In this document: positions 12,347-14,520 of the stretch, piece after piece
Numbering within the stretch: the first letter of the stretch is position 1
Layout: each line of letters begins with the position of its first letter
Assembly: GCF_001677475.2 (NCBI RefSeq)
Contig: NZ_CP015229.1
Length of the DNA stretch: 64,000 nt
DNA from: Escherichia coli
GTDB lineage: Bacteria; Pseudomonadota; Gammaproteobacteria; Enterobacterales; Enterobacteriaceae
Strand: one strand, 5' to 3'
Program-made: the position numbers and the translations under genes
Notes under the pieces: model-generated
Told to the model about the DNA's origin: nothing
Database searches by the model: none
What the model saw: only the letters and a program-made list of their open reading frames with translations

Positions 12347-13570
12347 GTGGACAATGCCGCTATTATTTCGGGTTACAGCGTGTGGATGCCGTATGCCGAA
12401 GACTGTTCGCAGTTAATTGACAATCTGAAACAGGGGAAACGCGTTGCGCGTACACCCTGGTTTACCTCCAACGAGGAGGCCATTAAATGCGGGTTTAAGG
12501 GTAATCCGTCAGTGGCGACGTTGAAACAGGTGGACGATAGCGCATTGGACCTGCTGTCTCAGTTGATCGACGAAGCCCTGGCACAGGCAATGCTGGATAA
12601 GCATTGCCTGGCCGGGCGCAACGTTCGCGTTTATCTGACCGGTATTGGGCCGCGTATCGACGGGTTGGATTACAAATCTTTCTATAATTACAACGATGTA
12701 GAAGATATCAACTTAACGCAATCCATCACAAATCTGCATGCCTCGAAGATGTCGCAGGACACGATTTCAAGCCATCTTGCGCGCAAATATCGCTTGCAGC
12801 ATTTGCCGCCTAACATGAACTGCACCAGTAACTCGTCACTGACTGCGGTTCATCTGGCGACGCAGGGCATTGAGCAGGGCGGGATTGATCTCGCTATTGT
12901 GCTGAACTGTTCGAAAATTAAAACCCAGGATATCTGGTTCCTGGAAACGCAATCGATGCTGGACAGCGAACAAGTTCAGCCGTTTGGTGAAAACAGTAAA
13001 GGCGTGGCGTTCGCAGAAGGGTTTAGCGCGCTTCTGCTGGAAAGTGCTCATCACCGCCGGGCGCGTCAACAAAGTGAGGGCGTAAGGGTGCAAACAACTT
13101 ACACCCAAATCAGCGCAGGCCGCAGCAACGATGCCTCCTGGCTTAGCACTAACGTGCACAAGGTCATGCAGGCCGCGATGAAGCAGGCTGAAATTGCGCT
13201 GGATGATCTTGCAGCCATTCTTCCACACGGCAACGGTTCGGCAGTGAGCGATAACGCGGAAGCCAAAGCCATCACCATGTTCGCAGGGGAGCAGCAGATC
13301 CCCGTTCTCGCCTATAAAGGGCAGATCGGCTATACCGCAACCGGATCTGGTGTTGTCGATCTGATCATTGGCCACCATTCGTTGACGCATCATCAACTGA
13401 TCGCACCTGTTGGCAATGACGTCATTATCGACAGCATGGCTTCGCGGGTACTTACGGACGGCAGCGTGACAAACCATAGCAAACGCCATTTGCTAAAGGT
13501 TGGTGTGGGTGTCGATGGTTCGGTTATTGGCGTTGTCATGTCAAATATGCAAGCGGGGCGCGCGAAATGA
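12347..13570 (+). CDS. Beta-ketoacyl synthase-like protein, active-site Cys possibly replaced by Ser
   Basis: GTG start 7 nt after AAGGGA; ISGYSVWMP N-terminus, NCTSNSSLTAVHLA aligns with KS TACSSSLVAIHLA, C-terminal GVGVDGSVIGVV; ORF-track start at 12281 overlaps the upstream gene. Confidence 0.65.
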   Translation: MDNAAIISGYSVWMPYAEDCSQLIDNLKQGKRVARTPWFTSNEEAIKCGFKGNPSVATLKQVDDSALDLLSQLIDEALAQAMLDKHCLAGRNVRVYLTGIGPRIDGLDYKSFYNYNDVEDINLTQSITNLHASKMSQDTISSHLARKYRLQHLPPNMNCTSNSSLTAVHLATQGIEQGGIDLAIVLNCSKIKTQDIWFLETQSMLDSEQVQPFGENSKGVAFAEGFSALLLESAHHRRARQQSEGVRVQTTYTQISAGRSNDASWLSTNVHKVMQAAMKQAEIALDDLAAILPHGNGSAVSDNAEAKAITMFAGEQQIPVLAYKGQIGYTATGSGVVDLIIGHHSLTHHQLIAPVGNDVIIDSMASRVLTDGSVTNHSKRHLLKVGVGVDGSVIGVVMSNMQAGRAK

Positions 13571-14520
13571 CGGAAAAGAGTATCTACCTGTCTTCCTGGG
13601 CGCTTACGGAACCGGACGACATTTTTTATTTTTATCAGCCGACCTGGCTCAACGCCTGGGAAGCACATATGTACGAAAGAGGATTATACGGCACCCGTGC
13701 TAATGGCTGGGGGCTGAAGCGCTTTGGCGTGGAGAACGATATTTATGCGCCAGAACGGATCCGTAATCCGCAATATATGCCTTACCTTGAGGCGATGGAG
13801 CAGGTAACCGATTCTGCATTACAACAAATGCCGACTAAAGAGCGCATGAAGTTAATGAAATCGCGCACGGCATTTATTTATGCCGATTCCTGGGGGGAAT
13901 CCGGTCCGTTTGAAAAAATTTCCAGTGCGCTGCATATCGCCACTATTGATACGCTTCCCAAGAATTTACTTAAGAAGTTTTCGATAACGGAGCCGACTTG
14001 CAAAATTCGCGGCGAAAAACAGGCATTCGTTCAGGCGCTGCATATGGCGCAGGATTATCTCGCCTGGGATGTATTCGATAACGTGGTGATTTGTGCTGCC
14101 TATCGGGCAATTCCGGTGCTGGTATTCTCTGAAGAAGATGTGGGTAAACCGCCTAAGCGTTTATTCCCCCGTCGCGCTGATGAGGTGAATTTATCTGTTG
14201 AACGAGTGGGTTGTTTTATTCTCAGCCAGCGTGAAAGCGCCATCAGGCTGCAATGCGGGGAATATCATTCCGGCACTGCGCCACAGCATGCTACGGATAT
14301 TGATGTCATGGCCTTCAGCGAACGGCGACAAATGCCGTCCCGGCCTGCTGCTGGCGTTATCGACCTGGTAGCCCATTACGGAGAAAGCGGTTGTCTGACG
14401 CCCGCGTTGAGTATGGATTATTTAACCCGTCATATTCAGCCCGGTGGAAAAATGCGTACAGTCATTGCCGATAAACAGTTTGGTTATCACTACTTTGACC
14501 TTGAATACCTTGAAGGATAA
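13567..14520 (+). CDS. Hypothetical cytoplasmic protein (unknown function), translationally coupled to KS-like gene
   Basis: 317-aa ORF; ATGA overlap with upstream stop; no motif recognised. Confidence 0.55.
   Translation: MTEKSIYLSSWALTEPDDIFYFYQPTWLNAWEAHMYERGLYGTRANGWGLKRFGVENDIYAPERIRNPQYMPYLEAMEQVTDSALQQMPTKERMKLMKSRTAFIYADSWGESGPFEKISSALHIATIDTLPKNLLKKFSITEPTCKIRGEKQAFVQALHMAQDYLAWDVFDNVVICAAYRAIPVLVFSEEDVGKPPKRLFPRRADEVNLSVERVGCFILSQRESAIRLQCGEYHSGTAPQHATDIDVMAFSERRQMPSRPAAGVIDLVAHYGESGCLTPALSMDYLTRHIQPGGKMRTVIADKQFGYHYFDLEYLEG

What the first reader, a model, noticed from the sequence alone, without database searches (positions are those of the whole stretch)
13567..14520. Unassigned 317-aa cytoplasmic protein coupled to the ketosynthase genes
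It is translationally coupled (ATGA overlap) to the KS-like gene and directly precedes the ABC ATPase, but I recognise no motif. Its position makes it a candidate for a missing pathway function (for example thioesterase or acyltransferase for chain release, or a degenerate KS-fold partner).
Basis: inference. Interest (0 to 1): 0.5.

Follow-up and report, generated by a model that had tools for sequence, protein, structure and literature searches.

The report
Hidden partner subunit of a ketosynthase
The unassigned 317-residue protein is a real, conserved gene. It is most likely a catalytically dead, ketosynthase-shaped partner that pairs with the unusual ketosynthase-like enzyme encoded just upstream, in an uncharacterised lipid/polyketide cluster of E. 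coli O157-type strains.

Summary
The ORF at 13567-14520 is as described: ATG inside an ATGA overlap with the upstream KS-like gene, 317 aa, ABC ATPase 10 nt downstream. It is a real gene: dN/dS is 0.06-0.26, and in 33 of 33 loci from about 30 species it directly follows the same KS-like gene.

The nucleophile position holds Lys/Arg, and no His/Asn catalytic pair is conserved, so it is very unlikely to be a condensing enzyme.

Three results point to a heterodimer with the upstream protein ("KS2"):
- Two metagenomic proteins are natural KS2-X fusions.
- A linked KS2-X model has pTM 0.90.
- That model superposes on the single-chain PfaC KS-CLF didomain over 662 residues at 3.5 Å.

KS2 itself is unusual: Ser-His-Lys-Tyr replaces Cys-His-Lys-His in every locus.

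Verdict: a cryptic chain-length-factor-like (KSβ) subunit, a new sequence family of a known kind. The heterodimer is predicted, not shown. Its role (priming or chain hand-off rather than elongation) and the cluster's product are unknown.

The parts
13567..14520 (+). X: 317-aa degenerate thiolase-fold protein, proposed non-catalytic CLF-like (KS-beta) partner of KS2
13567..13570 (+). ATGA start/stop overlap between KS2 and X (translational coupling)
   Evidence: Read directly from the sequence. In 33 loci the KS2-X spacing is -29 to +23 nt, with one case of +78.
12347..13570 (+). KS2: 407-aa KAS I/II-like protein with Ser161-His294-Lys324-Tyr329 in place of Cys-His-Lys-His; proposed catalytic partner of X
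   Evidence: NCBIfam KS hits are all far below their cutoffs; the best is AmcF, 63 bits against a cutoff of 325. Active-site alignment across 33 loci. Its homologue is the N-terminal half of the fusion protein P0149.
9784..12342 (+). KS1: 852-aa fused KS (Cys-His-Lys-His) plus CLF-like domain (Glu-Thr-Asn-Phe); the cluster's only canonical condensing site
   Evidence: FabF model E = 1.8e-135. Active-site columns.
6516..6884 (+). Dedicated holo-ACP synthase (AcpS)
   Evidence: Translation. RefSeq annotation of the homologous locus. Pfam ACPS in L002 and L003.
6898..7659 (+). FabG-like ketoreductase (SDR)
7663..8211 (+). FabZ/ApeI-like dehydratase
8233..8514 (+). Cluster acyl carrier protein
8550..9710 (+). 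GcvT-family aminomethyltransferase-like protein, an invariant cluster member of unknown role
14531..15238 (+). LolD-like ABC ATPase
15222..15878 (+). 218-aa secreted protein with no family assignment, conserved in the cluster
15879..17189 (+). LolC/E-like (MacB_PCD/FtsX) permease
17198..17986 (+). LolA-like / TP_0789-like periplasmic carrier
17983..19371 (+). 462-aa secreted protein with no family assignment (possible outer-membrane component)
19382..20326 (+). FabD-like malonyl-CoA:ACP transacylase
20323..21309 (+). YcdU, polytopic membrane protein, last gene of the cluster
980..6500 (+). TpsA (980-4792) and TpsB (4881-6500) two-partner secretion pair, linked to the cluster in the main clade

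Best explanation
X is a highly diverged thiolase-fold protein that has lost the condensing-enzyme catalytic residues. It is proposed to serve as the obligate non-catalytic beta-subunit of the KS-like protein encoded immediately upstream (KS2, 12347-13570), forming a KS-CLF-type pseudo-symmetric heterodimer.

Thiolase-fold enzymes work as dimers. In this model X supplies the second half of the dimer interface and part of the wall of the acyl-binding tunnel, and probably keeps KS2 soluble. This is what CLF, ApeC, AmcG and PqsB do for their partners.

The cluster would then hold two such pairs:
- KS1, already fused as KS-CLF, carries the only canonical Cys-His-His site and presumably does the iterative elongation on the cluster's own ACP.
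- KS2-X has an invariant Ser-His-Lys-Tyr site and presumably does a non-elongating step, either chain priming (malonyl-ACP decarboxylation) or hand-off/release of the finished chain towards the Lol-like export system.

Shown or computed here: gene reality, fold, loss of the nucleophile, strict adjacency, natural fusions, purifying selection. Predicted only: the heterodimer. Inferred only: the reaction of the pair.

For: (2) Degenerate active site. hhalign places X 124-178 on KS2 134-188 (E = 5e-4), and the same register appears against both KS1 domains. The nucleophile column (KS1 Cys162, KS2 Ser161, KS1-C Glu) is therefore X Lys151. That column is Lys or Arg in 59 of 67 family members. The columns I read as His and His/Asn equivalents (about 252 and 273) are variable.

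(3) Linkage. In 33 of 33 loci X follows KS2 directly, spacing -29 to +23 nt with one case of +78, inside a cluster that keeps the same gene order across Enterobacterales, Acinetobacter, Neisseria, Proteus and Providencia.

(4) Natural fusions. P0149 (784 aa) and P0170 (779 aa) carry a KS2 homologue at the N-terminus and X at the C-terminus (BLASTP of P0149 against KS2 gives E = 4e-40 over the full length). P0149 sits in the same cluster type.

(6) Selection. dN/dS of X is 0.06-0.26, yet X diverges faster than KS1 (50-60% against 75-86% identity), as expected for a non-catalytic partner.

(7) Precedent. AmcG 'lacks the functional motifs', is insoluble alone and heterodimerises with AmcF (PMC10698177).

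(8) Joint decay. In Mixta mediterraneensis KS2 and X each carry an in-frame stop, while 13 other cluster genes (AcpS to YcdU, plus TpsB) are intact and the LolA-like gene is split by an insertion.
Against: - No experimental interaction data exist.
- The heterodimer rests on one AF2 run with a shallow paired alignment and an artificial linker. AF2 may impose the familiar KS dimer geometry on any two thiolase domains.
- X keeps many invariant polar residues (D107, E111, K146, R148, E150, R180, E212, R213, S274). That is more than a pure scaffold would seem to need.
- The mapping of the C-terminal catalytic positions rests on reading motifs and secondary structure, not on a structural alignment.
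- The reaction of the KS2-X pair is not constrained by any result here.
Confidence: 0.72

Rival explanations
1. X is itself an enzyme. It would be a thiolase-fold acyltransferase, thioesterase or cyclase using non-canonical residues (for example Cys145, Cys216 or Ser274 with Asp107/Glu212/Arg213), and would release or transfer the ACP-bound chain. It might or might not bind KS2.
For: - The cluster has no thioesterase or other release enzyme.
- X has many invariant polar and nucleophilic residues.
- Thiolase-fold acyltransferases with altered catalytic sets exist among its structural neighbours: DpsC, CerJ, ChlB3.
Against: - The canonical nucleophile column is Lys/Arg.
- Cys145 is Ser, Ala, Ile or Phe, and Cys216 is Phe, in several distant members including both fusion proteins.
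- Several invariant residues fall on generic thiolase structural motifs: E212 on the 'GEG' loop and G272-x-S274-G275 on the 'GNTS'/'GHxxG' loop. This is my reading of the alignments, not a tool result.
- The His and Asn equivalents are not conserved.
Confidence: 0.15
2. X is a thiolase-fold scaffold that does not pair with KS2. It would homodimerise or dock onto another cluster component, for example coupling the synthase to the ABC exporter encoded next to it.
For: X lies between the biosynthetic genes and the ABC ATPase. KS2 could in principle homodimerise, as FabF does.
Against: - The natural fusions are with KS2, not with the ABC ATPase.
- In L035 the KS2-X fusion keeps X next to KS2 while the transporter genes lie about 4.5 kb downstream, separated by four other genes.
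- The AF2 KS2-X model is confident and KS-CLF-like.
Confidence: 0.08
3. X is an ATP-binding protein, as many NCBI records name its homologues.
For: Source names and in H4-H6 and H9.
Against: There is no Walker A motif in the sequence. The fold is thiolase, not P-loop or kinase. No NCBIfam or Pfam model supports the name. The name most likely spread from the neighbouring ABC ATPase.
Confidence: 0.01
4. X is a decaying pseudogene or a chance ORF.
For: A frameshift in Enterobacter cloacae DSM 26481 (L023) and an in-frame stop in Mixta mediterraneensis (L006).
Against: X is intact in 31 of 33 loci, with dN/dS 0.06-0.26. 380 of 381 E. coli genomes that carry it have at least 80% coverage. The fold prediction is confident.
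Confidence: 0.01

Closest known systems
Chain length factor / KS-beta of type II PKS, including highly reducing systems (act CLF 1TQY_B, ishigamide Iga12 6KXD_B, AntE 6SMO_C)
   Different: - No Pfam ketoacyl-synt match.
- About 10% identity.
- 317 aa against about 350-400 aa, with a shortened C-terminal half.
- Lys/Arg instead of Gln at the Cys position.
- Its partner has Ser-His-Lys-Tyr rather than Cys-His-His.
AmcG ('CYF') of the cispentacin AmcF-AmcG heterodimer (PMC10698177)
   Same: A motif-less partner that could not be annotated from sequence. It is insoluble alone and forms a KS-CLF-like heterodimer. AmcF is the best NCBIfam hit of KS2.
   Different: The KS2 score to AmcF is 63 bits against a cutoff of 325. 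AmcF keeps the catalytic Cys. X matches no NCBIfam model. The cluster content differs: there is no adenylating enzyme and no aminotransferase.
PfaC KS-CLF didomain of PUFA synthase (6RIW), and the cluster's own KS1
   Same: Single-chain KS followed by CLF. The KS2-X model superposes on 6RIW over 662 residues at 3.5 A. The natural KS2-X fusions have the same domain order.
   Different: In the window X is a separate polypeptide. Sequence identity is 12%.
ApeO-ApeC (KS-CLF) of aryl polyene clusters in Gram-negative bacteria
   Same: A type II FAS/PKS-like cluster with its own ACP, KR and ApeI-like DH, and a LolA-like export component; found in Enterobacterales and Acinetobacter (my own knowledge of APE clusters; PMC8358021 listed).
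   Different: This cluster has no aryl-starter genes, glycosyltransferase, thioesterase or MMPL exporter. It has a GcvT-like gene, a Lol-type ABC system and a linked TPS pair instead. No sequence match between X and ApeC was found.
PqsB of the PqsBC condensing enzyme
   Same: A degenerate thiolase-fold subunit of about 300 aa, lacking catalytic residues, that heterodimerises with the catalytic subunit. PqsBC is among the structural hits.
   Different: The PqsB partner is FabH-type (Cys-His). Here the partner is KAS I/II-type with Ser.

Membership tests
Thiolase superfamily (fold level) | Two-lobed alpha-beta-alpha-beta-alpha thiolase fold | tested here: met
Thiolase superfamily (catalytic members) | Nucleophilic Cys (or Ser) at the N-terminus of the central helix | tested here: not met
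   The column aligned to KS1 Cys162 and KS2 Ser161 is X Lys151, and is Lys or Arg in 59 of 67 members.
Thiolase superfamily (catalytic members) | Conserved His-His or His-Asn pair in the C-terminal half | tested here: not met
   The columns I read as equivalent (about 252 and 273) are variable: Gly/Glu/Thr/Ala and Asp/Ala/Ser/Glu/Cys/His. The mapping comes from motifs and secondary structure only, not from a structural alignment.
Type II PKS chain length factor (KS-beta) | Sequence membership in Pfam ketoacyl-synt (PF00109) / Ketoacyl-synt_C (PF02801) | tested here: not met
   No Pfam hit at E <= 0.001. Precomputed Pfam is '-' for all 120 listed homologues.
Type II PKS chain length factor (KS-beta) | Encoded adjacent to, and co-translated with, its KS partner | tested here: met
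   ATGA overlap. Adjacent in 33 of 33 loci.
Type II PKS chain length factor (KS-beta) | Gln in place of the active-site Cys (aromatic type II CLFs) | tested here: not met
   Lys/Arg at that column; Gln in 2 of 67 members.
Type II PKS chain length factor (KS-beta) | Forms a 1:1 heterodimer with the KS through the thiolase dimer interface | tested here: inconclusive
   Prediction only. Linked model pTM 0.90; 662 residues at 3.5 A on the PfaC KS-CLF didomain; natural fusions. No experiment, no PAE, no homodimer control.
Type II PKS chain length factor (KS-beta) | Determines chain length or shapes the acyl tunnel | not testable with these tools
   Needs structures and product analysis.
AmcF-AmcG (KS-CYF) pair | Scores above the NCBIfam cutoffs for the pair | tested here: not met
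   KS2 to AmcF gives 63 bits against a cutoff of 325. X matches no NCBIfam model at E <= 10.
ATP-binding protein (the name in NCBI records) | Nucleotide-binding motif or fold | tested here: not met
   No GxxxxGK[ST] in the sequence. The fold is thiolase.

The most novel reading that the evidence does not exclude
KS2(Ser-His-Lys-Tyr)-X is not a relabelled KS-CLF. It would be a new kind of thiolase-fold heterodimer that works through an acyl-O-serine intermediate. It would prime the chain, or off-load the finished chain from the dedicated ACP onto an acceptor for Lol-like export to the outer membrane, possibly in concert with the linked two-partner-secretion protein. X would contribute essential active-site or acceptor-binding residues. 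The cluster, present in E. coli O157:H7 island OI-47, would then make an undescribed envelope lipid.
Probability: 0.2. Interest if true: 0.75.

Novelty: new variant of a known kind. Interest (0 to 1): 0.5.

Why it matters
It assigns a structural role to a protein family that has no Pfam or NCBIfam model and is named 'hypothetical' or, wrongly, 'ATP-binding' in hundreds of Enterobacterales genomes.

It also shows that a conserved 15-gene type II FAS/PKS-like cluster contains two KS/partner pairs, one canonical and one with a serine in the active site. About 7% of complete E. coli genomes carry X and, as far as checked (L001), the cluster. By location and gene content it lies in island OI-47 of O157:H7, though no O157:H7 record was inspected here.

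No paper on the product was found in the searched library. The two OI-47 reviews read here discuss only the island's regulator GrvA and its distribution.

Knowing that KS2 and X probably must be co-expressed is a practical prerequisite for reconstituting the pathway. [quoted passage not shown]

Tried and rejected
- Sequence-based annotation gave nothing. Pfam: best hit ACP_syn_III, E = 0.37. NCBIfam: no hit at E <= 10. PDB profile search: no hit at E <= 10.
- hhalign of the X family against the KS2, KS1-N and KS1-C families gave only a weak local match around the nucleophile helix (E = 5e-4, 0.4 and 0.095). It was useful for the register but does not prove homology on its own.
- The profile search of 1.84 billion representatives found only 56 clusters and no link to a named family.
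- Literature searches found nothing on this gene or the biosynthetic part of the island: 'OI-47'; aminomethyltransferase + ketosynthase + two-partner secretion; GcvT / CLF / LolA; locus tags z1546-z1551. The OI-47 papers read discuss only the regulator GrvA and the island's distribution.
- A search for the consequences of Cys-to-Ser in ketosynthases found nothing usable. Statements on that point rest on my own recollection.
- align_proteins refuses DNA references that span a stop codon, so the paired KS2-X sequences were entered as letters.
- Rejected readings: thioesterase (wrong fold), ATP-binding protein (no motif, wrong fold), pseudogene (dN/dS well below 1).
- I could not get model coordinates or PAE, so interface and tunnel residues of X could not be mapped.
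Full report
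**1. The observation**

The ORF is exactly as described: 13567..14520 on the + strand, ATG start, 317 aa. The sequence ...GCGAAATGACGG... shows that the ATG at 13567 overlaps the TGA stop at 13568-13570 of the upstream KS-like gene. A LolD-like ABC ATPase starts at 14531, 10 nt after the stop of X.

RefSeq annotates the same ORF in E. coli as 'hypothetical protein' or 'ATP-binding protein'. The DNA is present at 95-99% identity in 381 of 5426 complete E. coli genomes. The window lies next to ghrA-ycdXYZ-csg. From its location and gene content I place the cluster in O-island 47 of O157:H7 (z1528-z1556, PMC8565820); no O157:H7 record was inspected directly, so this placement is an inference.

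No known sequence motif is found:
- Pfam: best hit ACP_syn_III, residues 152-180, E = 0.37.
- NCBIfam: nothing even at E <= 10.
- PDB sequence profile: nothing at E <= 10.

**2. It is a real, conserved gene**

- The word-indexed search found 131 homologues in Enterobacterales (Kosakonia, Pantoea, Klebsiella, Rahnella, Mixta), Aeromonas, Acinetobacter, Neisseria and Orbaceae.
- The exhaustive profile search of 1.84 billion representatives found only 56 clusters, so this is a small family.
- Pairwise dN/dS of X is 0.06-0.26, about the same as for the neighbouring KS2.
- In 33 loci from about 30 species the gene order is kept: AcpS-KR-DH-ACP-GcvT-like-KS1-KS2-X-ABC-hyp218-permease-(LolA-like-hyp462)-FabD-(YcdU). 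X always follows KS2 directly, with spacing of -29 to +23 nt and one case of +78.
- This holds even where X is only 31-34% identical, as in Proteus, Providencia, Serratia silvae and Entomohabitans.

**3. Fold**

An AlphaFold2 model built from 44 homologues has mean pLDDT 84.2 and pTM 0.86.

- Foldseek against the PDB returns 845 hits at E <= 1e-3. The 50 listed are all thiolase-fold proteins (OleA, MxnB, CorB, DpsC, FabH, PqsBC, ChlB3, CerJ and others), with best E about 1e-10.
- No subfamily stands out. X is a thiolase-fold protein that is roughly equally distant from all known branches, and its C-terminal half is shortened.

**4. The catalytic residues are gone**

Profile-profile alignment puts X 124-178 on KS2 134-188 (E = 5e-4). 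The same register is found independently against both domains of KS1. It also agrees with the weak Pfam ACP_syn_III match and with the model's secondary structure (strand 145-148, helix from 153).

In that register the nucleophile column (KS1 Cys162, KS2 Ser161) is X Lys151. Over 67 family members it is Lys in 36 and Arg in 23.

The columns that I read, from motifs and secondary structure, as the His and His/Asn equivalents (about 252 and 273) are variable.

The residues conserved across the whole family are W48, R52-F-G54, Y105-x-D107-x-W109-G110, K146-x-R148-G149, A161, D171, R180, P183, E212-R213 and Y271-G-x-S274-G275. By my reading, several of these fall on generic thiolase structural motifs: E212 on the 'GEG' loop, and G-x-S-G on the 'GNTS'/'GHxxG' loop. 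X is therefore very unlikely to be a condensing enzyme.

**5. Evidence that X pairs with KS2**

(a) *Adjacency.* X is adjacent to KS2 and translationally coupled in every locus.

(b) *Natural fusions.* Two metagenomic proteins are fusions. P0149 (784 aa) and P0170 (779 aa) match the X profile in their C-terminal halves. The N-terminal 430 aa of P0149 align with KS2 over its full length (27% identity, E = 4e-40). P0149 sits in the same cluster type, directly after an 846-aa KS1 homologue. P0170 sits in a looser KR/FabD/P450/ABC context.

(c) *Predicted complex.* I joined KS2 and X with a (GGGGS)5 linker, aligned 20 such linked pairs (the window plus 19 other loci) with the two natural fusions, and predicted the structure.
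- pTM is 0.90 and mean pLDDT 85.3, with only the linker disordered.
- The X loop 111-130, which had pLDDT 43/54 in the monomer model, rises to 78/76.
- The predicted arrangement is therefore that of a KS-CLF pseudo-dimer.

(d) *Rate of change.* X diverges faster than the canonical KS1 (50-60% against 75-86% identity to the window) while staying under purifying selection.

(e) *Joint decay.* In Mixta mediterraneensis KS2 and X each carry one in-frame stop. The other cluster genes are intact except the LolA-like gene, which is split by an insertion. This is a single case.

(f) *Precedent.* AmcG of the cispentacin pathway 'lacks the functional motifs', is insoluble alone, and heterodimerises with the KS AmcF (PMC10698177). 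AmcF is also the best, though far sub-threshold, NCBIfam hit of KS2.

**6. Caveats**

- The heterodimer is predicted, not shown.
- I had no PAE or coordinates and no homodimer controls.
- AlphaFold may impose the KS dimer geometry on any two thiolase domains.
- The number of invariant polar residues in X leaves room for a contribution to catalysis or substrate binding.

**7. Context and likely mechanism**

KS1 (852 aa) is a fused KS-CLF. Its N-domain has Cys-His-Lys-His. Its C-domain has Glu-Thr-Asn-Phe at the same columns.

KS2 has Ser161-His294-Lys324-Tyr329, invariant in all 33 loci. Only the distant fusion P0170 has Cys.

The cluster also encodes its own PPTase, ACP, FabD, FabG-like KR and FabZ/ApeI-like DH. 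It has no enoyl reductase and no thioesterase. A GcvT-family protein is an invariant member. A Lol-like ABC system, a LolA-like carrier and secreted or membrane proteins of unknown family are also present.

My inference is that KS1 elongates and that KS2-X does a non-elongating step. That step could be priming by malonyl-ACP decarboxylation, or hand-off/release of the chain through an acyl-O-Ser intermediate towards export. Nothing computed here tells these two apart.

**8. Comparison with known systems and novelty**

Functionally X resembles CLF/KS-beta, ApeC, AmcG and PqsB. It fails the sequence-membership tests for each:
- no Pfam ketoacyl-synt match;
- no NCBIfam match;
- Lys/Arg rather than Gln at the Cys column;
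- about 80 residues shorter than known CLFs;
- a partner with Ser instead of Cys.

I classify it as a new variant of a known kind: a cryptic KS-beta-like subunit that forms its own sequence family. The 'ATP-binding protein' name in many NCBI records is unsupported, because there is no Walker motif and the fold is thiolase.

**9. Verdict**

Thioesterase is not, and acyltransferase activity of X itself is not.
- Confidence that X has a thiolase fold: about 0.95.
- Confidence that it lacks condensing activity: about 0.9.
- Confidence that it works as the partner of KS2: about 0.7.
- Interest is moderate (0.5). The gene itself is explained by a known principle, but it sits in a widespread and apparently unstudied cluster with several unusual features.

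Noticed in passing
window 20323-21309 (ycdU); L036: The orphan K-12 gene ycdU is the last gene of this cluster. In a strain without the cluster (NZ_CP072564.1), an IS3 is followed by a 3' fragment of the FabD-like gene (annotated as a pseudogene) and an intact ycdU. ycdU DNA is in 2662 of 5426 complete E. coli genomes, against 381 for X. YcdU homologues follow FabD in Acinetobacter, Neisseria, Kosakonia and others.
   Followed up: partly
window 980-6500; L002-L027: A two-partner secretion pair lies directly upstream of acpS: TpsA, a filamentous-haemagglutinin-like protein of 1270 aa, and a ShlB/FhaC-type TpsB. The linkage is kept in 21 of the 22 main-clade loci whose upstream flank was retrieved (L015 showed only TpsB), including Acinetobacter equi and a Neisseria species. 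TpsB is missing in the distant clade. The reason for linking a TPS protein to a lipid/polyketide cluster is unknown.
   Followed up: partly
window 12347-13570: The KS-like protein upstream of X has Ser-His-Lys-Tyr instead of Cys-His-Lys-His, invariant in 33 loci; the distant fusion P0170 has Cys. It is probably not a normal elongating ketosynthase.
   Followed up: partly
window 9784-12342: The 852-aa 'double KS' is a fused KS-CLF. The second domain has Glu, Thr, Asn and Phe at the Cys, His, Lys and His columns.
   Followed up: partly
window 8550-9710: A GcvT-family (aminomethyltransferase, folate-binding) protein is an invariant member of the cluster in every locus where that position was retrieved, including the metagenomic L034. 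I know of no role for this family in type II FAS/PKS chemistry.
   Followed up: no
window 6516-21309: The cluster has no enoyl reductase and no thioesterase, but has a complete Lol-like export set: ABC ATPase, LolC/E-like permease, LolA/TP_0789-like carrier, and two secreted proteins of 218 and 462 aa with no family. This suggests an unsaturated, envelope-targeted lipid. That conclusion is inference only.
   Followed up: no
L006 8780-10954; L023 10001-10952: Signs of decay. In Mixta mediterraneensis there is one in-frame stop in KS2, one in X, and an insertion of about 1 kb in the LolA-like gene. In Enterobacter cloacae DSM 26481 there is a frameshift in X near residue 231-236. Sequencing errors are not excluded.
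   Followed up: partly
homologues of X in public records: Many NCBI and UniRef records name this family 'ATP-binding protein'. The name is not supported by sequence or fold and probably spread from the adjacent ABC ATPase.
   Followed up: yes
window about 21400-21700 (- strand): A tRNA-Ser gene and RtT sRNA repeat(s) lie just downstream of ycdU in the homologous E. coli loci. A tRNA gene is a typical boundary for a genomic island. This was not checked in the window itself with ARAGORN or Rfam.
   Followed up: no
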